A model generated the notes under the pieces. The model had not been told where the DNA came from, searched no databases, and saw only the letters and a list, made by a program, of their open reading frames with translations. The translations under genes and the position numbers were made by a program. A DNA stretch of 64,000 bases from Candidatus Poseidoniaceae archaeon (GTDB lineage: Archaea > Thermoplasmatota > Poseidoniia > Poseidoniales > Poseidoniaceae), in the NCBI GenBank assembly GCA_943789275.1, contig CALSTM010000003.1:160489-224488 (forward strand), written 5' to 3'. Numbering within the stretch: position 1 is the first letter of the stretch; each line of letters opens with the position of its first letter. This document shows positions 4,601 to 64,000 of this stretch, in pieces.

Positions 4601-4694
4601 CTTATCCCCAATCTCAATGATTGCGGTCATTGTTCTTGCAGGTGTCGTATCCGGTGGCCGCCGAGACAGCAACACCGACGAGAATGAAGAGTGA
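1668..4694 (+). CDS. large acidic secreted cell-surface protein with C-terminal membrane anchor and two LDL-receptor class A-like Cys repeats
   Basis: Signal peptide MNIARTLPSLLMTTLLLAALLPLGSVSA. The composition is extremely rich in D, E, T and S. Tandem FTC[DN]DGSE...NDG...C.DGSDE repeats lie around nt 3306-3500. The C-terminal hydrophobic helix IAVIVLAGVVSGGRR is followed by an acidic tail. A GGAAGAGG Shine-Dalgarno lies upstream. Confidence 0.6.
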   Translation: MNIARTLPSLLMTTLLLAALLPLGSVSATPTEESEFYYGVEYDWSSVDTDLENFTGVDVPEILSEIMGAADDAGFNLVIGQLQTGASNVYVHHTEDITPQTIQDNNGNDVSVWSRTDDVTLRHGILADTILQTDWTETTFGSDTTSFDIDVVQTLEQFLTVDMTYTEYLDDSYNLIGADMEFSMDVSALVGLNIDVLLEGGGEEFPVDFNTELDLGYSITDSTSEWRLGSPNAIYVDLSAADDNYYWECGESECGDLTGDYTGAVDYSFSIDGIPTEDFGLDAGEFDLEISDSLTESGNFDMEMYGEFDFSKGETLTVDLGDGEGLTTQVQSCDTCPPGNPLMFLMMGNVLAGSGEAFAEQVAEDIGEDITDSLESIFGSAEPEGDLMLYSFSAEEAVNYEGDEDKLAYVTMNQGNDINWATVMVQVSVDGNAPVTCSNPGMPADGDCSLVEFGSVGDQYWSVGDGVTIMDDADMCPENNYCSVDITVTDTMEGQILSSTWTSVEGFTPANAPAKLTGDLHFWGDNITVQTALSGNTSVLQSDDSAMFTCDDGSEIGFTSVNDGESSCSDGSDEAPTDGSTKMFTCNDGSEVEWTTLNDGYGDCPTLEDEGVLNHYTLQMNVFDDAGTPLSSIESTICDSWMCDSNLEWATSWSEDSGVAVPSTYGESTMCMTASISETGASSPLVEFSEMCHSQWIGPELGYADVWEDEAMSLRYDMSVYDWSSDGGATLTYSLMDPNQNQLDSGTMVIDGSDNSYSMEGNIDVLEVGEYCLMTELTQDGASTPYLSEMHCTMVEESDDEVSDRVAAVIEALADSGLEDVLEQFGMNLEDRLEDVEPFEEFPYDDGMWAPMWSNEHAAMVGVGVYVMNDDGAYTLAGPETQGYMDDAPAQLSIHYLTGADANAATNGMEEATSIDDIVNVDDHDLGAIEEDLIEAGVDVSNLTLPETDTPAGTDGGDNPTPPTAEELAEDSGLDLPFLSPISMIAVIVLAGVVSGGRRDSNTDENEE

Positions 4695-9605: not shown

Positions 9606-9685
9606 GATTGAATGCCTCGGCCTCAGATAGATAAATCATTCACACGACGGAGGGCTTCAAATATGACCCCTAAGTGGTCGATGCA

Positions 9686-14119: not shown

Positions 14120-14312
14120 GCCACCTCCTTCCGCGGGACCTCTTTGTCCCTTTTGGCTGTCCAATTTCTCTTGAGGAGGGTTTGTGAAGTAAAAAACGAG
14201 GTATTGCGCCTCAACTCTGATTTCTACGGTGTTTTTACAACACCCCCACAAATCCTCGCCCGAAATTACAATCGGCGAAAGCATTGAAGAGGACTTCTTA
14301 GAAGAGCCAATC

Positions 14313-17300: not shown

Positions 17301-18221
17301 GAAGACTCCACCCATCTAGCAGTCTTCTTCGGAGGATTGGTATCGTTAGCAGGGCTTGGTCTTCTGGGACGAAACGACCTCGGTTATCGAATTCCGAATG
17401 CGCTGGAAGGCGTCGTTTACCTTGCAGCACTTGACCGGGCAATGTGTGTTGTTGTTGGAGGTGAGGTCCCGATTCCGTTCAATCTGGACCCGTTTATTTC
17501 CGATTATTCGATCGCAACTTGGACTGTACCGTTTTTGTTGATTGAAGTACTTTTGATTGGTGCTGTGTTTGCCTTTAACTGGGTTGAAGGTAAGCGTATT
17601 CAACACAGTATGGACGATCATCGAGGGGCAGCAGGGCGCTCCGCTTGGATTCTCTTTATCGCTGTGATTTCTTTTGGTCCAGCAGCTTTTGCTGCACTTA
17701 TCGTGGGTGCTCGACGCGGTGTTTGGTGGTCACAGCCAGCAGTCGTGCTCACTGCTTGGCTGCTCACGCCATTGGCTTATCTTGCCACCAGCGCTTGGCT
17801 TTCCGACTTTGCCGCTTTGCCTCAACTCTCTCTGGTCACCACAGCACAGGGCATTCTCACCATCGCCTTTGTAGCATGGACGGTGGAAAAGCGGCAAGGA
17901 CTGTGGCTGCCAGCGGGGTTGTGGGCCATGCATATCCTGTTGATTGGTTCGGGCTTTGGATATGGAAACTTACTCATCACCGTTCTCCTCATCTTGGCTT
18001 CTTCAACCACTTCTTGGGTGTCTGGAATCCTCACCTTGCGGAAATCTTGGCGTATCGTCGGGGCACTTGATTTGGTACTTGCGTGGATTGTAGCTTCAGT
18101 TGTCATCATTCAAGGTGCTGCAGTGGAGGTCTTACTGGCTATACTGGTCGCATCCGCCGTTCTCCTCGGACTTGTGACGTTCTTAACACAGACTTACGAA
18201 GGCGAAATGGCAAAGGAGTGA
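14313..18221 (+). CDS. giant polytopic membrane protein (about 1300 aa, at least 30 predicted TM helices) of unknown family
   Basis: ATG at 14313 (MTDDTKGRRSTPAPS...); the track start 14229 is GTG and abuts a T-rich TATA-like element. Acidic N-terminal roughly 100 aa. Dozens of hydrophobic helices follow. A central charged coiled-coil-like segment RALTKKENRVQRLKEKQDRIQAFLD...AEKQRKRQKRAG lies at about nt 16770-17010, then a second block of helices. Confidence 0.6.
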   Translation: MTDDTKGRRSTPAPSSPRDEVARKRDFRRAQGIDIKSFMVDAEPDEPPQPEKAEPVIEDIAVGEISPLFTSGDEESTVAGAVQRDGTVEKAPEMDSVSDIAVHGEKRLSLGLLVAMVFIWSAIGAMVGTVLPELLSGAGLLFMGVLGLYLGERWIPNPNMRLLGVTWVIISMKLFYGLALDAWHWGWFDASPLGASETLGISLIGVVSMNVYIAQRHNEDAIAAQATLILLLVGSAAGALYGEIGIASMIALGTLLMHGLAVYRESGNLASLGIASSYLWVGVHALSNNWELFGLELVSFDDELLLFLLMAFVTATNATIAARFVRAENWFSKAFEGMGLGNPSLWAVSVGLGMIGALLAIAAYRLETGYALAQLALLIGAFSGSYLVVRGVRFQDIAPFLVVPTPFLLVGLAIYSSGILPASLPLGLDEYSVYAALTSLFTALALLRNQTAVSDHVIWLGGVAIVGLLTLLIPAGELDNGARILLTTQAIIWLGLSGLAVLRSSPSIAGTAVIGPWIWLLFFATDVDSRLISVDLLPIVIDEYDLFIWMGLLVVQQIWVNIRHGEVGLNLASRLVGFSEIGARLRDSGFAKLWNLSFLLTLIVTWAVTRPGALPIYGLLGVLGGLLIGHSLMVYLDRHRGKPQSLMGVWGVFAVLFSWNFGQSAVWALSLVASCAVMLKASEQSRERGASEFELEKMEALPGKLLTMMMGFLTVFFIMIALNPLTTIPLTGSEYMFDQETNLLVLMIVGLVSLALYLVRAATLEKLLPPAVTAVGLILSMALAGRSIAVESVVLVALVAFVMSGAYLAIQGEFRSGIRALTKKENRVQRLKEKQDRIQAFLDSTGMEGTEVVQLGNQFADGETPETPQSNLRLIDSELLNLAEKQRKRQKRAGSTGEMDLYVGDIHHQPTIVLLFLGTTILATTYLSFTTGATLLALMFSVLISVLFVGLSRLRANQIGLRLPDILGIEAPIALAMLGLVMVHIAGRASNSVVELEDSTHLAVFFGGLVSLAGLGLLGRNDLGYRIPNALEGVVYLAALDRAMCVVVGGEVPIPFNLDPFISDYSIATWTVPFLLIEVLLIGAVFAFNWVEGKRIQHSMDDHRGAAGRSAWILFIAVISFGPAAFAALIVGARRGVWWSQPAVVLTAWLLTPLAYLATSAWLSDFAALPQLSLVTTAQGILTIAFVAWTVEKRQGLWLPAGLWAMHILLIGSGFGYGNLLITVLLILASSTTSWVSGILTLRKSWRIVGALDLVLAWIVASVVIIQGAAVEVLLAILVASAVLLGLVTFLTQTYEGEMAKE

Positions 18222-43134: not shown

Positions 43135-46100
43135 ATGGGTCAAAAAATAAAGTCAGTCAGTCTTGTATCAATCATGTTGCTTTCCGTCATGTCGACGCTC
43201 TTCTTGGCGTCTCTTACCGCAACAGCGAACACCGTCGTCATCACCGAAGCAATTCAAATCGTTGACGGAGGAACTTCATCCGATACTCAAACTTCAGTCG
43301 GCTCTGACAGTGAAGGAAACGTTCACGTCGTTTGGACTCGGAACAACCTTCACCTCTACTACTCGATGATTTCTCCTCGTGGTGACACCTTGATTGACAC
43401 CACGCAGATTTCAAACCCAGGTCTTCACAAAATCTGGCACCCAGACATGGTTGTTGACGAAAACGACAAGATTCACGTTGTTTGGGCTGATAAGTCAGGC
43501 CAACACAAAATCATGTACACCGTCCTCAACCCTTGGGCATCATCCATGGACGGCATGGCCTCAGACGATGGAACACTTTCTGCAATTGACGACTACGTTG
43601 TCTCAAGCCGTGCGCAAAACCGCGACTGGCCAGCAATCGACATTGACAGCCAAGGCGGCGTTCATATTGTCTGGGAAGATTCCTACGACTCAGAAGGCAA
43701 GTTCTTCAGCCAACCACAGATCTACTACACCATGTTGTCACCAGATATCAGCAGTGGCGCAGTCATTGTCAATTTTGACGATACCCTTCTGACTCCAATC
43801 ATTGGTCACAAAGGCCACCCTGACGTCGTCGTTGACGCAAACGATTACGTCCAAATCGCTTGGGACGACACCCGAGGTGGAAAGGTCGAGCTCAGTTTCA
43901 TCGTTGACACCTCCGGTTCCATGTACTCGGAATGGGCGGACATCTGTACCGTTGTTTACGGTGGGAACTTTGCTTCCGGCGGTTACTTCCAAGGTATCAA
44001 GCCAATGCTTGAAACCGCAAACATGACTGTTTACGAAACCATCTACGGTCTTGGAAATACACTCCCTGGTGCTGCAAGTTCAGGTAACTGCGCTGGTAAG
44101 AACCAAAATTCTGGCCCTCGCACAACGCCTTTGGGTCAAACACCAGGTGACGACTCTGGCGGTATTCGAAAGCTACCGGGGACCGTCTACAACGGCAACA
44201 CTTACTCCGGATATTCCGGTGAAGATTGGGGCCCAGGAACCAACTGGGGTTGCCTTTCATGGAAAGACGCTCAAGGAAACGTCCCAGGAAACCCGCCAAC
44301 TCAAGACGACCACCGATGGAATCCAAACGCAACAAAGATCATCATTCCAGTTTCAGACGAAGGTCCGAAAGACGGTGACCCATCTCAACAAGCAGATGAC
44401 CTGACCTCTATTGAAGAGGCGCACGACAACTGTATCAACGCAGGAGTCATTCCAGTCGGTCTTTACGGACAAGGATACGGTGGAGCCGGTAACATCCAAT
44501 CCCACTTCATGGATTTAGTCCAATGTCCAAACAACGTCGTTTCGACCCAAACTCGAAACTGCCCAGGTAACACGCTACGAAGTTCAGACGCTGGTGGACA
44601 AGCCTATGAGTTCCCATCCGGAACCGGTGGAAACAACGCAATGGCTTTGCTTGTTGAAGCAATGGTTTACATCTCTACAAACAACTCTCGTGAAATCTAC
44701 ATGACTGTTCTGGACCCATACGGTAAGATGAACAACGACCCGTCTTGGACTCCAGGCGCAACAGGACACTCAGTTGTCAACGGCGAATACGTCGAAGATA
44801 CCGGTGCTGGTGCAGACGGCCACCTCGTGGTTGTCAACGACACCCGTGTCACCATTGACGATGCTTACTCGTTCCACCCATCGATTGGTGTTGACATGCA
44901 AGGCAACACCCACATTGCATGGATGGACGGCCGAAACTATGGATTTGAGAAGGCTGTGAACTACGAAGTGTTCTACACCAAACTCCGACTTCAAGGTGCA
45001 GGTGCGTGGGACGGTGCTGACCAAGGACTTTCCACCTACGCTATCAAGAAGATTCAGGATACTCCAATCTCGAATGTTGAAGGAAACGGTGGACTCCCTG
45101 GTAACCGGCCGTTTGGTGGAAACTCCGTATTCCCTGCTCTGCTTACTGATGACCAAAACAACGTTCACATTGCGTGGGTCGATTCAGGAAACGCAACTGC
45201 TGATGAAGAAATCATTTACACTCGCCTGAACTCTACTGACTTGACTGGGCCGGGCCTTACTGCTCTTGACCCTTGGGAAAACGTGCCCGTCACCTCATGG
45301 GCAAGCAACAAACTTGGGCCAAACTCTGGCAGTCAGCCGAGCATAGGCATGCCTCCAGCGTTTTCGAACGATTTGGGAAGTGGCGCGCATATCGCTTGGT
45401 CGGACACGAATAAATGCGGTGAAGACGCCAACAATAACCGCTTCACGATCTGTTATTCCCACGTTCTCACCGGTCAGGTTGACGTTGAATTCCAAGATGG
45501 AGAAACGTACTACCACGTTATCGAACCTGGTCAGCAAACCATCTACAACATGTCAATGAACAACTCGACCCCAGGTCCAAAAGACCTTGTCGCTGATACG
45601 TTCGGACTCAACATCTCTGGTGTTCCCCAAAACTGGACTGCTACACTGTTCTTTGCTGATAACCATACGACAATAATGCCAGACACGCCTATCTTCCTCG
45701 AAGGTGGAGAAGACATTCGCTTCTACATGCGAATTCGTGCTCCGTCGGTGTACCAAGCTGAAGCGGACCAGATTGCCGATATATCGGTGATTGCTAAATC
45801 GTACAAGGACCCTGCTATTCAGTCCGACCTCGTCACTCGTACGCTGATGGACGTTGTTCACGGCATAAACCTGGACACCTCCCACAGCATGGCAGACGTC
45901 GAACAAGGCCAAACTGCGATTTTCTCGATTACGATTACCAACACAGGCAACGTCAACGACCAATTCGTATTCTGGGACCCGTATACACTTGAAGGCCGCC
46001 AAGAGTGGCTGCTTCAATTCGGTTGGACTGTAAACTTCCCAACCAGTGTAGAATTAGACCCTGGACAATCCGTTACCAAGAACCTCGAAGTCTTCGTCCC

Positions 46101-48225
46101 AACATCCGAAGACCCCGGTTCTTTCGTTATTTATCTCAAGGGATGGTCTGCTGGCGAACCGATTAAGTCGATTGAAAAAGGAACATACGACGTCCTTGAA
46201 CTCGGTGTTTTCGTTTCGATTCGTTCAACTGGAAACATCGTCATGGAATTGTTCGATACCAGTGAATATGTTGACCCCGGAGAATGTGCAACCTATCCTA
46301 TTGATGTCACCAAGAATTTCGATTCTGGTAAACTTGTCTTCGTGACCCCCGGTGCACCTGAACAAAAGCCCGACACCATCTCGATGGATGCTTGGAGAGA
46401 AGATAACTGGGTATTAAACCTCGATTTCTCCAATGCTCCGGGAGGCAACTCTGTTGACCTCAGCGAGCCACGAGATTGGAACATACCTCCAGGTGCAGAA
46501 TTTGTTACCTACGAAGTCAGCGTCGAAGTGTGCGCTCCGACCAAAGCTTCTGCCGGTCTTGGTCCTGCGGTTATCGTCAAAGCCTATCTTGACGGCTATC
46601 CAAGAATTTCATCGTCAAAGATTCTCTCAACCAATGTCAACCACGTGTATCAATTAAGCGCAAGTGCAGACATTGCTGATGAAGATAAGATCACTTTGGA
46701 CGGCCAAGAAGTTCTCCCGGTGAACCCTGGACAGCAGGTGGTTATGCCAACTACCGTTACGAATCTTGGAAACGGCCCAGATCGATTCGACTACCGACTT
46801 GCTCGTGTTACTGACCCTGCTGGCGTTGACGTCATCTGGGACATTGAAATCCCTCGTGACAGTCTCGACGAACTTTCCCGTGACACCAACCAAATCTTTG
46901 ACATCACAATGAATGTTCCAGACCAAGTTGAAGCTGGTGTTTACACCGTTGTATTCCAGACCTTCTCGGAAGAATCCTATCCAGATGCAAGCGGTCGTTT
47001 GACACGACTGCGATTCACTCAGACCATTCCTGTCTATGTTCAAGAGTTCTATGACATGCAAATCAGCATGGACTCAACTGTGGACAATGCAGTGAAGACA
47101 TCCGCACCTGGGCGAATTGTGCGGTTTGAATTGAACATCACAAACAATGGTAACGTTCCTGATTGGCCAACGCTCAACAACCACACGGCTAAGATTGATG
47201 GTGACACTCAAATCATGAGTGAGTTGCCTGGAATGGGTACATTGTCCGAATGGTCTGTCGAATGGCAACTTATCAAGCAAATCGGAACCGACCTCACCAC
47301 AGAGGAACCCTGTGAAACAGTTGCTTCGCTCGAAAGCACAACTGGAGACGAAGATGCAGCAATGAATCCAGAAGTGGCATTTGCTGACTTGGCTGACCGT
47401 TGTATTTACCTTGAATCTGAAGACCGCTATTTCATGCCAATGATGGATGCTTACACGACAATTCCAGTCGTTGCTATTGTCAAGATTGACCCGTCTGCTG
47501 TTCTCAGCACGCGCCCGGTCGGCTTGAAGGTCGTCTCGAAGATGGGCAACATGTTGGACGGTGGCGACCATGACGATTCTCCGTCTTGGGCAGCAGAAAA
47601 CCTCGATACAAACGAATTCGTCGTTACGCTACGATTGCGAGCTCCGAACTTGATCATCTCAGAAGTTTCCGTCTCGGACGATACTGGAGATGTAGACACT
47701 ACGATTCCTATCCGTGTCGTGTTGCAAAACGATGGAAACACGCATGCAACAGATATTGAAATCGTATTGTGTGAATACAAAGATGCTGCTGATGCGGACA
47801 TTATCAAGGACATTCGAAAGAACGGCTGTGACGATGAAAACATCGTTATGAGGCAAGTCATTGGTGCACTCCTTGCTCCAGATGACACGGAAGATTACAA
47901 GGAAATCGAACTTGTTCTGCTCTACCCTGTTTCAGCTGGTAGCCACGGTGTTTACGTCGTTGTGGACCCATCAAATGAGATTGTTGAATCATCCGAGAAC
48001 GACAACGTCAAGTCAGTCGAACAAGAACTCAAGTCGTCTGGAGGCATTCTTGACGTCGCTGGTGAAGTGGTTGGAAAGACTGCTCTACCGTTCGCAGTTA
48101 TTCTACTGACCATTGCTTTGTTCGGTGTCGTGTTCCTTGTTGGACGAGGACGCCGACAGGACGTTTTGGACCGAAAGGCTGAGCAATCATCCCTCGTGTC
48201 GGTTTTGGCCGGCGCAGAAGACTGA
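43135..48225 (+). CDS. giant (1696 aa) cell-surface adhesin-like protein with vWA and multiple NTGN-type (CARDB/DUF11-like) domains and C-terminal TM anchor
   Basis: Signal MGQKIKSVSLVSIMLLSVMSTLFLASLTATA. Seven W-x-D...Y repeats (VHVVWTRNNLHLYYSM, IHVVWADKSG..IMYTVL, VHIVWEDSYD..IYYTML and others). MIDAS motif VDTSGSM. Several ITNTGNV / VTNLGNGPD / ITNNGNVPD Ig-like modules. C-terminal KTALPFAVILLTIALFGVVFLVGRGRRQ. Confidence 0.7.
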   Translation: MGQKIKSVSLVSIMLLSVMSTLFLASLTATANTVVITEAIQIVDGGTSSDTQTSVGSDSEGNVHVVWTRNNLHLYYSMISPRGDTLIDTTQISNPGLHKIWHPDMVVDENDKIHVVWADKSGQHKIMYTVLNPWASSMDGMASDDGTLSAIDDYVVSSRAQNRDWPAIDIDSQGGVHIVWEDSYDSEGKFFSQPQIYYTMLSPDISSGAVIVNFDDTLLTPIIGHKGHPDVVVDANDYVQIAWDDTRGGKVELSFIVDTSGSMYSEWADICTVVYGGNFASGGYFQGIKPMLETANMTVYETIYGLGNTLPGAASSGNCAGKNQNSGPRTTPLGQTPGDDSGGIRKLPGTVYNGNTYSGYSGEDWGPGTNWGCLSWKDAQGNVPGNPPTQDDHRWNPNATKIIIPVSDEGPKDGDPSQQADDLTSIEEAHDNCINAGVIPVGLYGQGYGGAGNIQSHFMDLVQCPNNVVSTQTRNCPGNTLRSSDAGGQAYEFPSGTGGNNAMALLVEAMVYISTNNSREIYMTVLDPYGKMNNDPSWTPGATGHSVVNGEYVEDTGAGADGHLVVVNDTRVTIDDAYSFHPSIGVDMQGNTHIAWMDGRNYGFEKAVNYEVFYTKLRLQGAGAWDGADQGLSTYAIKKIQDTPISNVEGNGGLPGNRPFGGNSVFPALLTDDQNNVHIAWVDSGNATADEEIIYTRLNSTDLTGPGLTALDPWENVPVTSWASNKLGPNSGSQPSIGMPPAFSNDLGSGAHIAWSDTNKCGEDANNNRFTICYSHVLTGQVDVEFQDGETYYHVIEPGQQTIYNMSMNNSTPGPKDLVADTFGLNISGVPQNWTATLFFADNHTTIMPDTPIFLEGGEDIRFYMRIRAPSVYQAEADQIADISVIAKSYKDPAIQSDLVTRTLMDVVHGINLDTSHSMADVEQGQTAIFSITITNTGNVNDQFVFWDPYTLEGRQEWLLQFGWTVNFPTSVELDPGQSVTKNLEVFVPTSEDPGSFVIYLKGWSAGEPIKSIEKGTYDVLELGVFVSIRSTGNIVMELFDTSEYVDPGECATYPIDVTKNFDSGKLVFVTPGAPEQKPDTISMDAWREDNWVLNLDFSNAPGGNSVDLSEPRDWNIPPGAEFVTYEVSVEVCAPTKASAGLGPAVIVKAYLDGYPRISSSKILSTNVNHVYQLSASADIADEDKITLDGQEVLPVNPGQQVVMPTTVTNLGNGPDRFDYRLARVTDPAGVDVIWDIEIPRDSLDELSRDTNQIFDITMNVPDQVEAGVYTVVFQTFSEESYPDASGRLTRLRFTQTIPVYVQEFYDMQISMDSTVDNAVKTSAPGRIVRFELNITNNGNVPDWPTLNNHTAKIDGDTQIMSELPGMGTLSEWSVEWQLIKQIGTDLTTEEPCETVASLESTTGDEDAAMNPEVAFADLADRCIYLESEDRYFMPMMDAYTTIPVVAIVKIDPSAVLSTRPVGLKVVSKMGNMLDGGDHDDSPSWAAENLDTNEFVVTLRLRAPNLIISEVSVSDDTGDVDTTIPIRVVLQNDGNTHATDIEIVLCEYKDAADADIIKDIRKNGCDDENIVMRQVIGALLAPDDTEDYKEIELVLLYPVSAGSHGVYVVVDPSNEIVESSENDNVKSVEQELKSSGGILDVAGEVVGKTALPFAVILLTIALFGVVFLVGRGRRQDVLDRKAEQSSLVSVLAGAED

Positions 48226-56790: not shown

Positions 56791-56980
56791 GTGCTTGACT
56801 GTGAGGATTTATTCCGATACCATGTCGTCCGGAAAAACTCGTTGCAACCCTTTGTACACCCATTAGTAAGCTTTTCACGCGTGGGTACCCATTCGTGAGA
56901 TGCATGTGGGATGGGTGTTGGGTGGGTATACAGTTTGCTTCAAGTAGGGTTTATCTACAGTTGCCAATGGTAAGGGTTTG

Positions 56981-58225
56981 ATGCAGATGAACGACTCCTT
57001 TGAATTTAGATTAGGAGATTGTTTTTCAATTGGAAAAGAATTGGAAGACGAGAGCATTGATTGCATCATTACATCTCCTCCATATTGGAAACAAAGAGAA
57101 TATGATGTAGATGAAACAAAGATTGAGTTCTTGATTGGAATGGAAGAAAAACCTGAAGAGTATGTAGACCATTTAGTTAGAGTTTTGTCAATCTTGAAAA
57201 AGAAATTGAAAAGAGGAGGGTCATTGTGGCTAAATCTTGGTGACAAATATGTGAAAAAGAACCTCATGGGTATGCCGTGGAGAGTGGCAATAGCGTTGAT
57301 GGATGATGGCTGGATCTTGAGGAACGATGTAATATGGCATCGAATGAAAGGAACACAGAGTGCAAAGGATAAACTTCGAGATAACCATGAATACATCTTT
57401 CATTTTGTCAAAAACAAGAAATATTTCTATGACTTAGATTCCATAAGAATAGAGAGAGATCAAAAACCAAAGATGAAAAATGGTAGAATCGTATCATCCA
57501 CCGGTGTTTCTGGACAATCTTATTTCCGTAAGATTAAGAATTCAACAATATTAACCGACGAAGAAAAAGAGAATGCGACAAATGCCCTTAATCAAATGTT
57601 GGGACGCATGAAAGAAGGTAATATTGATGATTTCCGAATGTACATCAAGGGAGAACACCGAATCCTGCATAGTGATAAAGAACGAATCAGCGGAAGGGCA
57701 CGTCAATTAAATAGGGAAGGATTCTACTTCATGAGTAGTACTTCAAAGGGTAAAGTTCCATCGGACATTTGGTCTCATTCAGACAATGACATTTTCGAAA
57801 ACGATGCTATTTGTGCATTTGCTGTTTTAAGATCAGGGGACCTTATTCCAGGTACTCTATGGAATATTACTCCTGAAGATGAATGGAGAAAAGATGCTCA
57901 TTATGCAGTGTTCCCTACAGAATTACTACGCATCCCCATTTTGGCAACATGCCCTATAGATGGTGTTGTTTTGGATCCATTTATGGGTACTGGTAGTACT
58001 ATTCTGGCAGCAGTAGAATTTGGTAGGAAAGGAATTGGTTTCGATATTAGCCAGAAATATCTAGATATCGCGCAATCTAGACTGATAAAGGTCAACGGGG
58101 CTGCCAAGGAAGAATATCTAGATTTGCCTTCAAAGACAATAGTACAACTGAAAGAACTACTCAAAAAAGCAGGTAAACCAGTTTCCGGTAAGAAGTCTGA
58201 ACTAATTAAAAGACTCAATCAGTGA
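56981..58225 (+). CDS. DNA methyltransferase, beta-class N4-cytosine/N6-adenine (PF01555-like), with C-terminal SAP motif
   Basis: Motif IV DCIITSPPYW near the N-terminus and motif I LDPFMGTGSTILAA near the C-terminus, a beta-class order. The C-terminal LPSKTIVQLKELLKKAGKPVSGKKSELIKRL is SAP-like. ATG 56981 (the 56978 start is TTG). Lies in low-GC DNA. Confidence 0.75.
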   Translation: MQMNDSFEFRLGDCFSIGKELEDESIDCIITSPPYWKQREYDVDETKIEFLIGMEEKPEEYVDHLVRVLSILKKKLKRGGSLWLNLGDKYVKKNLMGMPWRVAIALMDDGWILRNDVIWHRMKGTQSAKDKLRDNHEYIFHFVKNKKYFYDLDSIRIERDQKPKMKNGRIVSSTGVSGQSYFRKIKNSTILTDEEKENATNALNQMLGRMKEGNIDDFRMYIKGEHRILHSDKERISGRARQLNREGFYFMSSTSKGKVPSDIWSHSDNDIFENDAICAFAVLRSGDLIPGTLWNITPEDEWRKDAHYAVFPTELLRIPILATCPIDGVVLDPFMGTGSTILAAVEFGRKGIGFDISQKYLDIAQSRLIKVNGAAKEEYLDLPSKTIVQLKELLKKAGKPVSGKKSELIKRLNQ

Positions 58226-58275
58226 ATTGTATAAATTGGCTAATACATAATTAACAACCCAGTCTTAGCGTTGAC

Positions 58276-59046
58276 ATGGTCAAGGTTCCAATTGAGTGGT
58301 TTGGTTGGAAAATCCCGGCCTTTAGTTCAACGGAATCAACTATTGGTCAAGGAAATCAAACCTGCAGATTTACAAACAACTTGTGCTCAAAGCCTCGAAA
58401 ATCAACTCCTGAAATTAGGACTGGAATTTGCTCAGTAAACATGACTGCAGGATTTTTTGAAGGAACTAGAAGAGTAATCATCTGTCCTAAGCGCTTTGAA
58501 TTAGATAATTTCTTTTCAATGCTTTCACAAAGATACTTTGACGCCGATCACTCTGTAACATGGACTCCAGAAGTCAAGATTGGCAATTTTGGGAATATCG
58601 ATTTCGTGGCATCACACTCATTACCAAGGGATGAAGAAGCGGATGAATCTGATGAAATGGAAGATGAAGATGATGTGGATGATGAACCACAAATCGTTTT
58701 GTTCGAATTACAAGCCGGAGGTACCACGGGAAGCCCTTATCCAGCAATTGAAGATTTTATTGAGAATCAGAGTTTTTCACAGACCAGCTACAGTTTTTCC
58801 ATTAATTGGGCGAATGAATTTATCAAAACTATGGGGCAACAGATCATCAAAAAGGGTCACGCAATTAATGGCTGGGGGGTTCCGATTGTATTTGTTATTC
58901 AAGACGTGGCCATGGAATATATCGTGGACAAAATGAATACTGAAAATCTAACAGAGCGCCCCGTAGATGCAGAGTGGCCTGACGAGGAGTATATCACTTT
59001 AGAACTATCACGATGGGAGATGGTGATGATTCAATGTTTTCTTTAG
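58276..59046 (+). CDS. candidate restriction endonuclease partner of the methyltransferase (Cys4 N-terminal module, acidic insert)
   Basis: Immediately downstream of the MTase on the same strand in the low-GC island. N-terminal C-x6-C...C-x?-C cluster (CRFTNNLC...GICSVN...ICPKRF). Possible PD-(D/E) core NIDFVASH...VLFELQ. No recognisable family beyond that. Confidence 0.35.
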   Translation: MVKVPIEWFGWKIPAFSSTESTIGQGNQTCRFTNNLCSKPRKSTPEIRTGICSVNMTAGFFEGTRRVIICPKRFELDNFFSMLSQRYFDADHSVTWTPEVKIGNFGNIDFVASHSLPRDEEADESDEMEDEDDVDDEPQIVLFELQAGGTTGSPYPAIEDFIENQSFSQTSYSFSINWANEFIKTMGQQIIKKGHAINGWGVPIVFVIQDVAMEYIVDKMNTENLTERPVDAEWPDEEYITLELSRWEMVMIQCFL

Positions 59047-59190
59047 AAGAGGGGTCTTTCTACACAGCAACCTTGGAGACAGCTGAGGCAATGCTGACTG
59101 TAGAAGGGTCCATCCATTTAAATCAATTTTTATTAGACTTGGAAGGCCGAATGGAAAGGGCTGAAACCTTCACAGTTGACACATGAAAAG

Positions 59191-59910
59191 TTATTTTCTT
59201 CGATGCCAGGGCTTGCCTCCCCACCAAGGGGGGTGCTGAAACTTCAATCTCTTCATATGGAAATCATTACTGATTGTTCTAGTTATGGAATTACCTTGCC
59301 ACTTCCCCCCTCGCTTACCCTTGATACCTCGCTTGTTGAGTGACCTAGCCAAAGCGGCAGTAGCCATGCCATTTTCATTAATTTGCCATGCCATGTAGTC
59401 GATGCAGTCTTGCTCAGTCCAATTGGGAACAAACATGCCATTCTCATCAACATCCCACCCAAAGATTGACTTCGTGAATTGTTTGTTTGTTGCTCGAAGT
59501 TGATTCATGGCTTCTACTGTTCGTTCTGAAATCAATCCTCTTTCCATTTCAGCGAGGGCGCCCATCAGTGTTAGAAAAAATCGACCCATCGTGGTTGAAG
59601 TATCTACAGCCTCACCGTTCAAATCCACAATGTGTAGATTGATATTTGCATCATTAAGTTCATCGATTGTTATCAAAACGTCTGTCGTCAATCTGAACAT
59701 CCTATCTAATTTCATCGTAATGAGGTCGCTGTATTGGCCTGTGCTCAATCTTCGTTTGAGTATTCGACCTTTCGGCCTATCCCACAGTGGAATACCTCCA
59801 CTCACACCTTCTTCGATAATGATGTCATCTGGACTGAGGTTCAATTTCTTGTATCTTACATATTCGAGAATTCTTCTCTTCTGAGCTTGTATGCTCACAC
59901 CTTCATCCAC
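59191..59910 (-). CDS. serine recombinase (resolvase/invertase family) with C-terminal HTH; atypical short N-terminus
   Basis: GVSIQAQKRRILEY resembles the RVSTxxQ nucleophile region. FFLTLMGALAEMERGLISERT is the resolvase E-helix signature. The C-terminal ATAALARSLNKRGIKGKRGGKW is HTH-like. Only a GTG start is available at 59910, with a stop 11 codons upstream. Confidence 0.6.
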   Translation of the reverse strand: MDEGVSIQAQKRRILEYVRYKKLNLSPDDIIIEEGVSGGIPLWDRPKGRILKRRLSTGQYSDLITMKLDRMFRLTTDVLITIDELNDANINLHIVDLNGEAVDTSTTMGRFFLTLMGALAEMERGLISERTVEAMNQLRATNKQFTKSIFGWDVDENGMFVPNWTEQDCIDYMAWQINENGMATAALARSLNKRGIKGKRGGKWQGNSITRTISNDFHMKRLKFQHPPWWGGKPWHRRK

Positions 59911-60041
59911 CTGCCTCTGTGATTGAAACTCGAATGTAGGCTACGCTTTTTGCTCGTTGGTTAGGTTGATTATTATGCAACATTTCTGAAGATTGTGATA
60001 CTTTCTATTTAATACATCACAACGTCGGAAATTTCACGCAG

Positions 60042-60162
60042 TTGGAACAATCAACCAATCGTTAATCATAATTGCACATGGGTTCAAGCAAATAACCCTT
60101 GAAACATGTTGATTGATTTTCAACGGTATGTTTGAACCCCTGTTTGAACAATCAACCAATCG
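60042..60162. repeat. pair of 19-20-bp direct repeats (tt[g/t]gaacaatcaaccaatcg) 101 bp apart inside an ~800-bp AT-rich non-coding stretch
   Basis: The copies sit at 60042-60061 and 60143-60162. Partially complementary ttgattg elements lie between them. Positioned between the recombinase and the large unknown gene. Confidence 0.6.
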
Positions 60163-60719
60163 ATTAGGATAGGTTGCAAGGGGTTATCCGAAACCCCATT
60201 CAACTTCCAAATCCGGTTTGAAGGGGATGCAGTCGGTCTGTTGGGTTCGCTACCGTTCCAACCATATACAGTCGCAAGGGCCCGCTTCCAACTTTTTTAA
60301 ATGTATTATATTCACGCTATCCATCCAATTACTCTTGAGTGAATGGGGGCGTTGCGATTGGCATGACAAAAGTGCCTTTATATTGAAAAAATGATATTTC
60401 TACTCAATAACCTAATACAAATAGATGAAGAATCATTCTGAGGGTGGCAATCAGGAAGACCATGCAAAAGATACGGCAGAAATAACATGTTCAAGACCAA
60501 CTTTATGGGCATTAACGTTCTAGGTTCGCGGGCTGTAGCAACCCTCTATGAGGTTCAGTAATATCTTTTGATGTCAAAAGAGTTTGTTTGTTCATTAAGT
60601 ATTAAGCCACAACCGGTATATAAAGAGGTGTACCCTGCTGGCCTGGTGACTTTTGAGCGTTCAATAGAAATAGATTTATTTCAGAAACACCAATTAAAAT
60701 TTTAATTGAATAAATACGA

Positions 60720-63614
60720 TCATTCATTTTCTTCACTATCCGAAAGGTAACCATCCTTTAATTGACCCCACAGAAGGGACATTGCTGGTTTATCTTGATG
60801 TGTATTGATGTCCCTAAAAGTCGTGCTTGAAACGATCGTTCGGCCATCAAACACCACAGGGAATAAAACCAATCGACTCCATAAAATCCATTCTCGATCT
60901 GTGGTTTTACGTATACGTTGGAAGGCACGTTCGATTGTTTCTTGTGTATTTGGTAATGTATTCGCACTCCCCGAAGGTGCATCCTCGTCGAAAACATCCA
61001 AAACATCCATCAGTTCCTCGTATTCTTCCGGGGTAAGTTCGTATGGGCCTTCGAATTTATTTGATAGCGGAGTCTGGATGAACGAAGTCCAATCTTCATA
61101 ATGAATACCTTCAAAATTAAGTCGGGTTCGAGACTTCTCTAGTATTGAGACCATTGAACACTCAGGGCCTCTTCTCGGCAATCCGTTTGAGAGAAGATAT
61201 TCGAGATCTAAATCTCCACGGATCAGTTCTTTATCGTGGCGGTCATCAAACTTCAATGGATTGAAATGGATACCAAGATGTCCCTTCTGTTTTATGAGTA
61301 TTTTTAATCTTGATAATATGTCATCATTAATCTCACATTGATGAAGTTCAGGATTATTTTCAAAATAAGTTGCCTCGCTCTTCAGCCATTCACTGTGCAT
61401 GAACTTCAAGAGAACGCGAACCTGATCGATAACCAGGACACTGCTGTCCTGATAAGGTTGGCGAAGTGGCTGTTCAAGCAACAAACGTGCGATCTGTTCA
61501 ACACGGGCCGTGAGCACATACAAACGTGCAAACGAGACCCTCAACATCTGGTCGACAAGTTGAGCCTTGTCGTACAATTTTGAATCACCATCGTGCTGCA
61601 ACACCCTCATCGGTGCCTGAGCAGCTTCTTGGGCCGCATGAATGATATCGTGAATGTGAATCGATTTCAAAGAAGACGGAAATCCACTGGTATCCACTGA
61701 AGATTGCCTTGCAGCACGATCAAGTCGGTCCTCAATATTGAATGGTGCTTGGTCAGCGATGAGATGTTCGATCAAATTCATCGAAGTCGCAGCAAACATG
61801 AGCGGGTCCATTCTATTGACGCGGTTGACATTTTTTCGGGAAAGAATGTTCTTTTTCAATTGAGCCTTAGTGTCGGCTGGCTCAGGAAGACGATGGCTCA
61901 CAAAGGGCTTGTTGTTGGGGTTGCCTTTCAAATGACCAATGGAAAATTGTGGACGGTTTTTGACTGCGCCGCTGACTTTCCATGTGCTGTTTTTTCCCTC
62001 GTGATTGAACATTTTTTCTAAATTTCCAAAGTAGTTGTTTTCATCTGGTTCTTTCAAAATCAATTGCATGTACGCCATCAAAATTGATATCTGCGATTGG
62101 TTGATAGAAGATTGAGGGAAATATTGCAAATGTTTGGATTTGTGATTCTCTTCCACGCCCCAAATCCAACGAGGCAGAAGTCCCACTTTGGAGGTGAACG
62201 GATTTAATTCTCTTGGATCACCAATCAAACGGATTAATCTCCCGAGGCCGGATGGGTTGCCTTGCGAGGCAGATCTATCAAACATGTCATTCATGGATGC
62301 TTTTCTGAAGAGTCCTCTGATTCTTGCTGGACAATCCCTTTCATCGTCCCATCCCATCTCGATGTACTCCTCTATCAGTTTCGATTTTTGTTGAAAGTCT
62401 TCAGCATCGTCTTGTGAGATTTCCCCCTCTTTTACTTCCTTCTCGAAGTAATTCGGTTTAGACATCTCTAGGAGAATCGCCGGAACAATATTTGAGAGAA
62501 GGATACCCCTATCTTGTTTAAGCTTGGAAAGAACCATTTCCTTCATCCAAGCATCGGTTGTTGTGACGGAATCAACAGCTTCTGTTAACTTTTCATACAA
62601 ATCAATTATCTCAGTCGAAAATTCCAATCGAAGGGTGAGTTGGTTGATCGGGGGGTTATCATCATCGCCATTCGTAGCCGTCTGATCTTTTTTATCAGTC
62701 TTGACAAAAGGCCTTGTTTCGTTGACAAGATTGTGGCACATCACGCGCAAGGTGCTTTCGATGTGAAGCACAGACGAGATGTGCAATTTTCCGGCAGAAT
62801 CCCGAATAAAACTCCTGATTGCATTGAAAATGTTCTTGAGTTTGTCCTTGTCCGAGTTCTGTTCAAACTCTTTTAATGTTTGAGACGCTGCATTCTTTGA
62901 ATTGAGGGTGATTCTTTTGGAAATTTCAAACAGGGCGCGTATCCATAATTCTGCTTCAGTGGCATCTGCTTCTGTACTTGGTTGAATTTCGCTAAACAAC
63001 AACGGACTGAACGAAATTAAACCCTTGACATCCTCTGGCATGAATGCCTTTTCGTGGATTTTCAATTTCGAACCTTGCTTCGCCAGCATCAACGCTGGAG
63101 CGATCAAACCTCTTGCCCTCAACACCAATGTAGATTCATAGATGACCGCAATTTCCCACCAATTGACTGCAGATTCGGATTTGTTTTCTCGAATGATGGC
63201 ATACCCCTTGTTGACGACAAAATTCGTTAATTCTTGATTGACTCGACAGTAGTCGCTAAGTTCATGCTGTGTGATTGTCGTTTTTTGGCCGGCGAGGGCT
63301 TCGGCACTGAGTTTACCGTTGAATGCGGTATTGATGCGGGCTATGATCCGGCGAAGGAGACAGATGTCATGCCATAGTTGAAAGGTTTTTTTTGAATGTT
63401 CAGCGTTATTCCATTCCGAAACTTTGCGAATCGTTTCTTTGCTTAACTCAAGAAGTTCTCTTGTAAGTCGTTCAATTCGTGCTTTGGGCCGGTTGTGCAC
63501 TGGTCCATTTGATGAAGGTAGAACGCCATGTATGCAATCAACGATTGCGCTTGTAAGTGCGTTTGCTTCAAACAATACTGTGTGCGATTCACGGCCCATC
63601 ATGTCCACTCTCAT
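60720..63614 (-). CDS. large (964 aa) hypothetical protein of unrecognised family in low-GC island
   Basis: Single uninterrupted ORF. ATG 63614 (MRVDMMGRESH...) lies about 23 nt downstream of a TTAAATATA box; the track start 63668 is GTG. Mostly helical composition. No Walker A, no nuclease or methylase motifs found by eye. Confidence 0.55.
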   Translation of the reverse strand: MRVDMMGRESHTVLFEANALTSAIVDCIHGVLPSSNGPVHNRPKARIERLTRELLELSKETIRKVSEWNNAEHSKKTFQLWHDICLLRRIIARINTAFNGKLSAEALAGQKTTITQHELSDYCRVNQELTNFVVNKGYAIIRENKSESAVNWWEIAVIYESTLVLRARGLIAPALMLAKQGSKLKIHEKAFMPEDVKGLISFSPLLFSEIQPSTEADATEAELWIRALFEISKRITLNSKNAASQTLKEFEQNSDKDKLKNIFNAIRSFIRDSAGKLHISSVLHIESTLRVMCHNLVNETRPFVKTDKKDQTATNGDDDNPPINQLTLRLEFSTEIIDLYEKLTEAVDSVTTTDAWMKEMVLSKLKQDRGILLSNIVPAILLEMSKPNYFEKEVKEGEISQDDAEDFQQKSKLIEEYIEMGWDDERDCPARIRGLFRKASMNDMFDRSASQGNPSGLGRLIRLIGDPRELNPFTSKVGLLPRWIWGVEENHKSKHLQYFPQSSINQSQISILMAYMQLILKEPDENNYFGNLEKMFNHEGKNSTWKVSGAVKNRPQFSIGHLKGNPNNKPFVSHRLPEPADTKAQLKKNILSRKNVNRVNRMDPLMFAATSMNLIEHLIADQAPFNIEDRLDRAARQSSVDTSGFPSSLKSIHIHDIIHAAQEAAQAPMRVLQHDGDSKLYDKAQLVDQMLRVSFARLYVLTARVEQIARLLLEQPLRQPYQDSSVLVIDQVRVLLKFMHSEWLKSEATYFENNPELHQCEINDDILSRLKILIKQKGHLGIHFNPLKFDDRHDKELIRGDLDLEYLLSNGLPRRGPECSMVSILEKSRTRLNFEGIHYEDWTSFIQTPLSNKFEGPYELTPEEYEELMDVLDVFDEDAPSGSANTLPNTQETIERAFQRIRKTTDREWILWSRLVLFPVVFDGRTIVSSTTFRDINTHQDKPAMSLLWGQLKDGYLSDSEENE

Positions 63615-63632
63615 GACGCCACATAACGTGAG

Positions 63633-63641
63633 TATATTTAA
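63633..63641 (-). promoter_or_regulatory. archaeal TATA box (TTAAATATA on minus strand) for the 964-aa gene, leaderless arrangement
   Basis: Plus strand reads tatatttaa at 63633-63641. The centre lies about 23 nt upstream of ATG 63614. Confidence 0.4.
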
Positions 63642-63819
63642 GCATGTTATGGTTGCATTCTCAAACACATTAAGGTTGCATCTGCGCTCAGATTTAGAAA
63701 GTCATAAACGAAAAAATCAATGCTAAGGATTGAAAATATGTTAGCACAGGTTTCATTAACTGGGACCAATTGGCAAACTCGTGCGAACACAGTCAGAGTT
63801 CAGAAAGCTTCGTCGAGAA

Positions 63820-64000
63820 ATGGCGCCTTACGTGGAAGTCATTGCAAAAATTGGTGCAACTACGGTCAAATCGATCTTCGATGATGTGTGGAACAAAGAG
63901 GAAAAGGATATCGGATTCGAAGAAGACGATGCTTGGATGTCTCGATTTCTTGCAAAAATGGTCATTGATGATCTCATCGAAGACCAAGAGCAGTCCCGAA
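63820..64000 (+). CDS. hypothetical protein, 5' fragment (continues beyond window end)
   Basis: ATG 63820 gives MAPYVEVIAKIGATTVKSIFDDVWNKEEKDIGFEEDDAWMSRFLAKMVIDDLIEDQEQSR with no stop before 64000. The competing antisense 64-aa ORF is less protein-like. Confidence 0.25.
   Translation, partial: MAPYVEVIAKIGATTVKSIFDDVWNKEEKDIGFEEDDAWMSRFLAKMVIDDLIEDQEQSR

What the first reader, a model, noticed from the sequence alone, without database searches (positions are those of the whole stretch)
60720..63614. 964-aa orphan protein with textbook leaderless TATA promoter
This is the longest gene of the island. It has a clean ORF and a strong TTAAATATA box about 23 nt upstream of the ATG, so it is very likely expressed. 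I could not find any P-loop, nuclease, methylase, helicase or known domain signature by eye. Large uncharacterised proteins next to R-M systems and recombinases are frequently novel anti-phage effectors.
Basis: inference. Interest (0 to 1): 0.75.

Follow-up and report, generated by a model that had tools for sequence, protein, structure and literature searches.

The report
Helical partner of archaeal SbcCD-like cassette
The 964-residue gene is real and probably expressed, but it is not an orphan or cargo of the restriction-modification island: it belongs to a conserved, almost all-helical protein family of marine Group II archaea with no known domain, and it nearly always sits back-to-back with a diverged Mre11/Rad50-like (SbcCD-like) nuclease-ATPase operon, so it probably works with that operon.

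Summary
The ORF (60720-63614, minus strand, 964 aa) and the TTAAATATA box (63633-63641) are confirmed. The box centre is 24.5 nt before the ATG, matching the A+T peak at -25.5 seen before 24 other genes in the window.

The host is a Candidatus Poseidoniales (Marine Group II) archaeon. The protein is not an orphan: 35 cluster representatives were found, with full-length members at 28-98% identity, all from marine metagenomes or MAGs and none from viruses or plasmids.

The R-M and recombinase neighbours are strain-specific: a 99.4%-identical strain diverges at 60251 and carries an HNH-endonuclease gene instead.

The conserved neighbour is a divergent operon: a hypervariable ~210-aa protein, usually a NERD nuclease, an SbcD-like phosphoesterase and a hook-less SbcC/Rad50-like ATPase. 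Its first gene begins at 63781.

The cassette has much lower synonymous divergence than flanking core genes and a higher dN/dS (0.2-0.35).

Best reading: a non-catalytic subunit of an SbcCD-derived DNA-end sensing or processing cassette, more likely used against foreign DNA than for routine repair. The function is inferred, not shown.

The parts
60720..63614 (-). Coding sequence of the 964-aa all-alpha protein, stop codon included. Alternative starts are GTG 63668 (982 aa) and ATG 63602 (960 aa).
   Evidence: ORF list and sequence. Homologues at 28-98% identity. dN/dS of 0.26-0.34 against orthologues. AlphaFold model with pLDDT 79.6 and pTM 0.86. The start choice is supported by the TATA position.
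63633..63641 (-). TATA-like box TTAAATATA, centred 24.5 nt before ATG 63614. This fits a leaderless or near-leaderless transcript.
   Evidence: Only exact copy in the window. Its position coincides with the genome-wide A+T peak at -25.5. Identical in L001 and L003; a TATA-like TTATTAATA lies at the equivalent place in the 43%-identical L002. No transcription start site data are available.
63615..63780 (.). Divergent intergenic region shared with the ~210-aa gene; presumed bidirectional promoter region.
   Evidence: Sequence. In relatives this region plus the ~210-aa gene is a hypervariable patch (45-68% nt identity) inside a cassette that is otherwise 90-98% identical.
63781..64000 (+). 5' part of the divergent ~210-aa gene ('p214' family), first gene of the SbcCD-like operon, cut by the window end. 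The start codon is uncertain (GTG 63781 or ATG 63820).
   Evidence: Translation. jackhmmer match to the L003 214-aa protein, E = 1.6e-35. L001 and L003 are collinear with the window up to position 64000 and continue into NERD, SbcD-like and SbcC-like genes.
60031..60288 (.). Non-coding element of about 250 bp, 430 bp downstream of the stop codon. It marks the end of synteny (60251) and has a second copy beyond the SbcC-like gene in L001 and L003.
   Evidence: blastn and nhmmer. Internal 30-nt direct repeat. No Rfam match. RNA folding z-score of only -2.0.
56978..59910 (.). Context, not part of the cassette: strain-specific low-G+C insert carrying an N6/N4 DNA methyltransferase with a SAP domain (56978-58225 +), a 256-aa unknown ORF (58276-59046 +) and a frameshifted serine recombinase (59191-59910 -, with the catalytic AYIRVS segment in another frame at about 59911-59985).
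   Evidence: Pfam and PADLOC, PHROGs, G+C profile, frameshift. Absent next to the homologue in L013, L018, L019 and L004.

Best explanation
The gene encodes the large, almost all-alpha-helical member of a gene cassette specific to Candidatus Poseidoniales (Marine Group II archaea). The cassette has two divergently transcribed arms. One arm is this ~950-1030-aa protein. The other is an operon with a hypervariable ~180-220-aa helical protein, usually a ~420-aa NERD (PD-(D/E)xK-type) nuclease, a tiny 33-64-aa ORF, an SbcD/Mre11-like phosphoesterase and an ~870-aa SbcC/Rad50-like ABC ATPase with a long coiled coil but no zinc hook.

Proposed mechanism (inferred). The SbcCD-like pair recognises and cuts DNA ends or hairpins. 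The 964-aa protein has no catalytic signature, and 14 of its 46 invariant residues are arginines. It would act as a non-catalytic scaffold, DNA-binding or regulatory subunit that couples recognition to the nucleases. The hypervariable small protein would provide specificity or be the target of viral inhibitors.

The cassette behaves like an accessory element exchanged between lineages, so a role against viruses or other foreign DNA is somewhat more likely than routine double-strand-break repair.

Shown: the gene is real, conserved and under purifying selection; its predicted fold has no known match; the linkage and the population-genetic signals are as described. Inferred: physical or functional partnership with the operon. 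Speculative: the defence role and the scaffold role.
For: Family and constraint: 35 representatives, with 46 invariant columns across 21 full-length members; dN/dS 0.26-0.34.

Linkage: every contig with at least 5 kb upstream except the L026/L027/L036 lineage carries SbcD-like and SbcC-like genes in the divergent operon. These are L001, L003, L005, L010, L013, L019 and L030 plus two JGI contigs. Shorter contigs show the ~210-aa gene with or without NERD. The linkage holds down to 28-30% protein identity. The window itself starts the ~210-aa gene at 63781.

Neighbour chemistry, read directly: Walker A GQNGRGKT, Walker B/D-loop MLLDDALVFSD, an SHGTKEQ signature-like motif, a D...EVK nuclease motif in NERD, and GDLFD / GNHD / GDQHG phosphoesterase motifs.

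Accessory behaviour: between the window and L013 the two flanking core genes have dS 1.33 and 3.4 (dN/dS 0.03-0.07), whereas the 964-aa gene has dS 0.31. Cassette genes have dN/dS 0.18-0.44. The ~210-aa gene and the promoter region are 45-68% identical inside a cassette that is 90-98% identical. The DNA downstream is variable or rearranged, and contigs often end there. The nearest non-archaeal SbcD-like relatives occur both alone and next to BREX genes.

Precedent: Lamassu is an immune system derived from SbcCD (PMC12663957).
Against: There is no direct evidence of interaction, expression or activity. No PADLOC, PHROGs, Pfam or NCBIfam profile matches the 964-aa protein.

In L013 the cassette sits among core genes (thioredoxin, photolyase, FtsZ, HisRS) with no mobility genes, and in L004 it lies near UvrC. 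That also fits a chromosomal repair function.

One lineage (L026, L027, L036) keeps the large gene, the ~190-aa gene and a HEAT-like protein but has no SbcCD-like genes within 9 kb, so the SbcCD link is not absolute.

Divergent adjacency can persist for regulatory reasons alone. I could not test whether these archaea also carry a canonical Mre11-Rad50-HerA-NurA set.
Confidence: 0.5

Rival explanations
1. Housekeeping repair factor. The cassette is the lineage's own, highly diverged Mre11-Rad50 machine for chromosomal double-strand-break repair. The 964-aa protein, the ~210-aa protein and NERD would replace the HerA helicase and NurA nuclease partners of other archaea, or play an Nbs1-like scaffold role.
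For: The cassette is found across Poseidoniales lineages down to 28% identity. In L013 it is embedded among core genes beside a photolyase, and in L004 it is near UvrC. It is absent from viral and plasmid collections. No HerA or NurA domain is present in the operon. These are sunlit-surface organisms for which DNA repair matters (general knowledge).
Against: Synonymous divergence of the cassette is 4 to 10 times lower than that of adjacent core genes in the same genome pair, and its dN/dS is 0.2-0.4 against 0.03-0.07. The ~210-aa member is hypervariable. NERD is lost in some lineages and SbcCD in one. The SbcC-like protein lacks the CxxC hook, and both proteins score far below the curated Rad50 and SbcD cut-offs.
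Confidence: 0.25
2. Unrelated function. The protein does something independent of the neighbouring operon, for example as a structural or scaffolding protein or as an enzyme with an alpha/alpha-toroid domain. The adjacency would then reflect only a shared promoter region or inherited gene order.
Confidence: 0.15
3. First reader's view. The protein is a stand-alone anti-virus effector that belongs to the R-M/recombinase island.
For: It lies next to a DNA methyltransferase, a possible restriction ORF and a serine recombinase in a low-G+C stretch.
Against: These neighbours are absent in all other loci, including strains that are 96-99% identical. Synteny breaks at 60251, outside the gene. The gene has the same low G+C in genomes without the island. 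The recombinase is frameshifted.
Confidence: 0.05

Closest known systems
Mre11-Rad50 / SbcCD DNA-end processing complexes (applies to the neighbouring operon, not to the 964-aa protein itself)
   Same: An adjacent phosphoesterase gene is followed by a gene for a long coiled-coil ABC ATPase. Walker A, Walker B and signature-like motifs and phosphoesterase motifs II-V are present. There are weak N-terminal matches to P. furiosus Rad50 and to SbcD.
   Different: There is no CxxC zinc hook; a ~60-residue non-helical insert sits mid-coil instead. Phosphoesterase motif I reads GDFQ rather than D-x-H. Scores are far below the family cut-offs. The operon has extra conserved partners: the 964-aa alpha protein, a hypervariable ~210-aa protein and NERD.
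Archaeal HerA-NurA-Mre11-Rad50 operon
   Same: Both are archaeal operons that combine a Mre11/Rad50-type pair with further nuclease or accessory genes.
   Different: No HerA (ATPase) or NurA domain was detected in any operon member. The accessory genes here are NERD, a small helical protein and a divergently transcribed ~1000-aa alpha protein with no NTPase motif.
Lamassu (LmuABC), an antiviral system derived from SbcCD (PMC12663957)
   Same: The concept is the same: an SbcC/Rad50-like DNA-end sensor combined with a PD-(D/E)xK-type nuclease effector and a small, highly diverse specificity subunit. PADLOC LmuB profiles give weak P-loop hits to the ATPase.
   Different: Here a full SbcD-like nuclease is retained and the coiled coil is full length. 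No LmuA or LmuC match was found, Lamassu has no counterpart of the 964-aa protein, and the host is archaeal.
MADS (methylation-associated defence system; bioRxiv 10.1101/2023.03.30.534895)
   Same: The NERD protein weakly matches the NERD region of MAD6 (E = 5e-6, 25 bits against a cut-off of 460). The ATPase marginally matches mad8. Methyltransferase genes lie nearby in two loci.
   Different: There is no kinase domain, the mandatory MAD6-8 set is not met, the matches cover shared generic domains only, and the 964-aa protein has no MADS counterpart.
Large alpha-solenoid partners of SMC/Rad50-type machines (cohesin SA/HAWK proteins, FANCI/FANCD2, Tel1/ATM N-terminal solenoid)
   Different: The scores are those of generic helical-repeat similarity (Foldseek TM 0.17 or less, E 4e-3 or higher). 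No HEAT or ARM repeats were detected in the protein. The resemblance is an analogy only.

Membership tests
   None of about 30 related loci shows recombinase or R-M genes directly downstream. L018 (99.4% identical) carries an HNH-endonuclease gene instead, L013 and L019 an LVIVD core gene, and L004 UvrC.
Mre11-Rad50 / SbcCD (neighbouring pair) | ABC ATPase head motifs split by a long coiled coil, encoded next to a calcineurin-like phosphoesterase | tested here: met
   GQNGRGKT, MLLDDALVFSD and an SHGTKEQ signature-like motif, with about 600 residues between the head halves. The Metallophos Pfam hit has E = 2.9e-12. The two genes overlap or abut.
Mre11-Rad50 / SbcCD (neighbouring pair) | CxxC zinc hook at the coiled-coil apex | tested here: not met
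   There is no CxxC anywhere in the 897-aa L003 protein.
Mre11-Rad50 / SbcCD (neighbouring pair) | Scores above the curated family thresholds | tested here: not met
   SbcD TIGR00619: 31 bits against a cut-off of 77.65. Rad50 PRK02224: 18.9 bits against 1087. PDB Rad50 and SbcD match only over the N-terminal ~90-150 residues (Rad50 E ~3e-4; SbcD E ~4e-3).
HerA-NurA end-resection module | HerA hexameric ATPase and NurA nuclease encoded with Mre11-Rad50 | tested here: not met
   No such domains were found in any operon protein of L003, L005 or L013.
Lamassu | LmuB together with an LmuA effector (conserved C-terminal domain) and LmuC | tested here: not met
   Only P-loop-level LmuB hits (E = 6e-4 to 1.5e-3). 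No LmuA or LmuC hits. The 964-aa protein has no PADLOC hit.
MADS | MAD6 kinase, MAD7 and MAD8 all present (mandatory in the authors' model) | tested here: not met
   MAD6 matches only over the NERD region (25 bits against a cut-off of 460). The mad8 hit is marginal (E = 0.0024). No kinase is present.
HEAT/ARM alpha-solenoids (karyopherin- or HAWK-like) | Detectable repeat units, or a global structural superposition | tested here: inconclusive
(alpha/alpha)6 toroid enzymes or thioester domains | A six-hairpin barrel domain with catalytic acidic residues | tested here: inconclusive
Archaeal leaderless promoter | TATA box centred about 25-27 nt upstream of a transcription start that coincides with the start codon | tested here: met
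   The box centre is at -24.5 and the genome-wide A+T peak is at -25.5. The actual transcription start site cannot be tested with these tools.
Viral or plasmid gene | Homologues on viral contigs, phage records or plasmids | tested here: not met
   IMG/VR scan, INPHARED and PLSDB tblastn, PHROGs and BFVD all gave nothing.

The most novel reading that the evidence does not exclude
The cassette is a previously undescribed archaeal immune or conflict system that evolved from SbcCD/Mre11-Rad50, in parallel with bacterial Lamassu. In it, a ~1000-aa protein whose fold has no solved relative and a hypervariable ~210-aa partner supply sensing, specificity or regulation for a Rad50-like DNA-end sensor and two nucleases. 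It would be one of the first defence systems specific to the uncultured, globally abundant Marine Group II archaea.
Probability: 0.3. Interest if true: 0.75.

Novelty: new variant of a known kind. Interest (0 to 1): 0.55.

Why it matters
Marine Group II archaea are among the most abundant planktonic archaea and remain uncultured. How they maintain their genomes and defend against viruses is essentially unknown.

This gene defines a conserved protein family of about 1000 residues with no sequence or structural relative. It is tied to a strongly diverged Mre11/Rad50-type machine that lacks the usual archaeal partners (HerA, NurA) and the zinc hook.

If the proteins work together, the cassette is one of two things. 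It could be a new way of building a DNA-end processing complex, or a new example of repair machinery turned into immunity. The hypervariable small subunit offers a natural handle for studying specificity.

Tried and rejected
1. Sequence and profile searches of the 964-aa protein and of a 21-member alignment against Pfam, NCBIfam, PADLOC, PHROGs and PDB sequences gave nothing credible. The only hits were marginal (TTRAP E = 0.07; one GDE_C E = 0.015).

3. A second word-indexed search with the alignment returned no new members.

4. No viral or plasmid origin was found.

5. MADS and Lamassu membership were suggested by weak NERD and P-loop hits. I rejected both because the defining components are missing.

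6. No paralogues of the protein were found among the other large unknown ORFs of the window or of the fetched loci.

7. The ~250-bp repeat might be a structured RNA, but it has no Rfam hit and a folding z-score of only -2.0. From memory it also resembles archaeal origin-recognition boxes (a TCCA..TGGA dyad followed by a G-run); I did not test this.

8. Literature searches for Poseidoniales or Marine Group II together with Rad50 or Mre11 found nothing relevant. A Red Sea transcription-start study does not discuss MGII promoter geometry.

9. The sigma-70 promoter and terminator scan is uninformative for an archaeon.
Full report
**Observation.** TTAAATATA lies at 63641-63633, with 18 nt between it and the ATG. 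It is the only exact copy in the window. With one mismatch allowed there are 6 sites against 5.3 expected, so the motif alone is not significant. Its position is informative. Averaged over 24 ATG-start genes of the window, A+T content peaks at -25.5 from the start codon, and about 10 of those genes have their best TATA-like 8-mer between -24.5 and -29.5. This gene scores 7 of 8 at -24.5. Leaderless or near-leaderless transcription therefore looks like the rule in this genome, and the gene conforms to it. The geometry favours ATG 63614 over the ATG 63602 start (960 aa) used for the metagenome homologues. The sigma-70 and terminator scan is irrelevant for an archaeon.

**Host and local setting.** The window encodes archaeal PriL and topoisomerase VI subunit B, along with PEPCK, phosphoglucomutase and two tRNAs. 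The closest named record is a Candidatus Poseidoniales MAG (L003, 93% protein identity). Related proteins are labelled Candidatus Poseidoniaceae. G+C falls from about 0.49 to 0.41-0.44 from about 56 kb to the window end. That stretch holds an N6/N4 methyltransferase with a SAP domain, a 256-aa unknown ORF and a serine recombinase. The catalytic AYIRVS segment of the recombinase lies in a different frame from the rest of the gene.

**Not an orphan.** The word-indexed search found 9 clusters at 42-98% identity. The exhaustive search of 50%-identity representatives found 35 proteins at E of 1e-3 or better and 17 at 1e-30 or better, with full-length members down to 28% identity. A 21-sequence alignment has 46 invariant columns, 14 of them arginine. 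Conservation is strongest around residues 481-520, 601-640 and 681-760. Against orthologues at 84-85% identity, dN/dS is 0.26-0.34. No homologue was found on IMG/VR contigs, phage records or plasmids, and there is no paralogue in the window or in any fetched locus.

**No known domain or fold.**
- Pfam, NCBIfam, PADLOC, PHROGs and PDB sequences gave nothing credible, whether queried with the single sequence, each of the 21 members or the profile.
- AlphaFold2 with the 21-sequence alignment gave a confident model (mean pLDDT 79.6, pTM 0.86). It is almost entirely helical, with a small beta element at 536-559 and disordered loops at 305-321 and 561-569.
- Foldseek against the PDB found nothing at E of 1e-3 or better. 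The best hits were exportins and karyopherins at TM 0.13-0.17. BFVD also gave nothing.
- The AlphaFold-database library could not be searched.

**Conserved context.**
- In L001, L003, L019 and L013 (83-98% identity) the gene is transcribed divergently from an operon of five genes: a ~213-aa protein, a NERD protein (~428 aa), a tiny ORF, a Metallophos/SbcD-like protein (376 aa) and an ~870-aa SbcC/Rad50-like protein. The JGI contigs of P0006 and P0013 (36-44% identity) show the same arrangement.
- L005, L010, L030 and L035 (about 30% identity) keep the SbcD-like gene — and, where the contig extends far enough (L005, L010, L030), the SbcC-like gene — but replace NERD with other small proteins, one of them HEAT-like.
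- Shorter contigs show the ~210-aa gene with or without NERD before they end.
- The window itself begins the ~210-aa gene at 63781 (E = 1.6e-35 to the L003 protein).
- One lineage is an exception. L026, L027 and L036 have the large gene, the ~190-aa gene, a 244-aa protein and a HEAT-like 211-aa protein, but no SbcCD-like genes within 9 kb.
- The tightest pairing is therefore with the ~210-aa gene, and the SbcCD-like pair is present in nearly all lineages.

**The partner proteins.**
- The ATPase has Walker A GQNGRGKT, a long coiled coil with a ~60-residue non-helical insert at mid-length, an SHGTKEQ signature-like motif and Walker B/D-loop MLLDDALVFSD. It has no CxxC hook.
- The phosphoesterase has GDLFD, GNHD, H and GDQHG motifs, but its first motif reads GDFQ.
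- NERD carries a D...EVK motif of the PD-(D/E)xK type.
- All are very distant from canonical proteins. The SbcD model gives 31 bits against a cut-off of 77.65, and PDB Rad50 and SbcD match only over the N-terminal ~90-150 residues (Rad50 E ~3e-4; SbcD E ~4e-3).
- No HerA or NurA domain is present.
- The nearest relatives of the SbcD-like protein outside these archaea (25-27% identity) are bacterial SbcD/SbcC-like pairs. One stands alone in a Bacteroidia MAG and another lies next to BREX genes.

**The R-M/recombinase neighbours are not the gene's context.** L018 (99.4% nt identity) and L003 are collinear with the window only as far as 60251, which is 470 bp beyond the stop codon. L018 then carries an HNH-endonuclease gene. 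In L013 and L019 the gene convergent with the homologue is an LVIVD-repeat gene that corresponds to window 9674-11692, 49 kb away in this genome. The intervening DNA is core genome, so this is a rearrangement breakpoint rather than a mobile element. Elsewhere the downstream gene is UvrC (after three small ORFs), an ABC transporter, or a 1345-aa single-subunit RNA polymerase. Most contigs end within a few hundred bases of the stop codon. A ~250-bp element at 60031-60288 sits at the breakpoint and has a 72-75% identical direct copy beyond the SbcC-like gene in L001 and L003. It has no Rfam match and only a modest predicted fold.

**Evolutionary behaviour of the cassette.**
- Between the window and L013, the two shared flanking core genes have dS 1.33 and 3.4 with dN/dS 0.03-0.07. 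The 964-aa gene has dS 0.31 (0.19-0.40 in every 150-codon block) and dN/dS 0.26. The SbcC-like, SbcD-like and NERD genes have dS 0.06-0.7 and dN/dS 0.18-0.44.
- The cassette is therefore younger than the genomes that carry it, implying exchange between lineages, and it is under weaker or diversifying constraint.
- In a three-way alignment, nucleotide identity is 90-98% in the SbcC-like gene and most of the large gene. It drops to 45-68% over the ~210-aa gene and the divergent promoter region. The ~210-aa proteins are only 43-47% identical. A second dip lies in the large gene around codons 300-400.
- The large gene has G+C of 0.42 in the window, L003 and L013, against 0.49-0.56 for its neighbours.

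**Interpretation.** Three things are established. The gene is real, constrained and probably expressed. Its family is lineage-specific with no known fold. It is persistently linked to an SbcCD-derived operon.

I infer that the protein works with that operon. Because it lacks NTPase or nuclease signatures and its invariant set is rich in arginine, I take it to be a non-catalytic scaffold, DNA-binding or regulatory subunit (confidence 0.5 for partnership).

The defence-versus-repair question remains open. Several points favour a conflict role:
- exchange of the cassette between lineages;
- raised dN/dS;
- the hypervariable small subunit;
- the optional NERD gene;
- a recombination-prone flank where defence-type genes accumulate (R-M here, HNH in L018).
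Lamassu is a precedent, being an immune system derived from SbcCD that senses DNA ends (PMC12663957).

Other points favour housekeeping repair:
- the cassette is embedded among core genes with no mobility genes in L013;
- repair genes lie nearby (photolyase, UvrC);
- it is absent from viruses and plasmids;
- I could not check whether a canonical Mre11-Rad50 set exists elsewhere in these genomes.

**Comparison with known systems.** The neighbouring pair works like Mre11-Rad50/SbcCD but fails two membership tests, the zinc hook and the curated score thresholds. Lamassu and MADS share generic domains only, and their defining components are absent. The 964-aa protein belongs to no described family. 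Its resemblance to the large helical partners of SMC- and Rad50-type machines is an analogy, not a demonstrated relationship.

**Verdict.** This is a new, lineage-specific variant of an SbcCD-type system whose largest component has no known relative. It is moderately interesting (0.55), because it concerns an abundant uncultured archaeal group and offers testable predictions. The function is still inferred from context alone.

Noticed in passing
window 60031-60288; L001:1001-1248; L003:1216-1464: A non-coding element of about 250 bp, with an internal 30-nt direct repeat (GTTGGAACAATCAACCAATCG...), lies at the synteny breakpoint (60251) downstream of the gene. A 72-75% identical copy in the same orientation lies beyond the SbcC-like gene, so direct copies bracket the ~9.5-kb cassette. 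It has no Rfam match and an RNA folding z-score of -2.0. Its nature is unknown; it could be a recombination site, a MITE or a protein-binding array.
   Followed up: partly
window 59191-59985 (minus strand): The serine recombinase is split by a frameshift. An ATG-started frame encodes MLHNNQPNQRAKSVAYIRVSITEAGG*, which contains the catalytic YxRVS motif. The remaining 239 aa continue in another frame from GTG 59910. This is either a pseudogene or a sequencing or assembly error.
   Followed up: partly
window 11692 versus 60720; L013:1830-7865; L019:7017-10528: In two related genomes the LVIVD-repeat gene (window 9674-11692) lies directly convergent with the 964-aa homologue. In this genome 49 kb of core genes (PEPCK, PGM, PriL, two tRNAs, topoisomerase VI, MFS transporter) separate them, which indicates a chromosomal rearrangement with a breakpoint just after the gene.
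   Followed up: partly
L003:6486-7361, L013:7928-8605, L019:6301-6969 (window equivalent 63615-64000 and beyond): The ~210-aa first gene of the divergent operon and the shared promoter region are hypervariable (45-68% nt and 43-47% aa identity) inside a cassette that is otherwise 90-98% identical between the same genomes.
   Followed up: partly
JGI metagenome 3300072015, 25.8-kb contig carrying P0006 (no DNA available): A 1345-aa protein with a single-subunit (T7-type) RNA polymerase domain (PF00940) lies directly downstream of the homologue, followed by many small ORFs. This is unusual in an archaeal context and may be an integrated element at the same variable site.
   Followed up: no
L018:3247-4647: A strain 99.4% identical across the gene carries a 466-aa HNH-endonuclease-domain protein where this window has the recombinase and R-M genes. 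The site therefore collects different defence-type genes in different strains.
   Followed up: partly
window 56978-58225: The type II-like N6/N4 DNA methyltransferase ends in a SAP domain (E = 2e-8), a DNA-binding motif mostly known from eukaryotes. The adjacent 256-aa ORF (58276-59046), a possible restriction enzyme, has an acidic tract and no family match.
   Followed up: no
window 60720-63614; L003:7386-10271; L013:4970-7795: The gene keeps a G+C of about 0.42 in three genomes whose neighbouring genes are at 0.49-0.56. The low G+C is therefore a stable property of the gene rather than a sign that it belongs to the local island.
   Followed up: partly
L026, L027:1-9800, L036: One lineage (about 30% identity) keeps the large gene, a ~190-aa gene, a 244-aa protein and a HEAT-like 211-aa protein. 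It has two AAA ATPases and a radical-SAM-like protein instead of the SbcCD-like pair within 9 kb.
   Followed up: partly
window 1668-4694, 14229-18221, 43135-48225: Three other very large ORFs (1008, 1330 and 1696 aa) have no or only marginal Pfam matches; the 1696-aa ORF has CARDB and DUF7507 hits. They are not related to the 964-aa family.
   Followed up: partly
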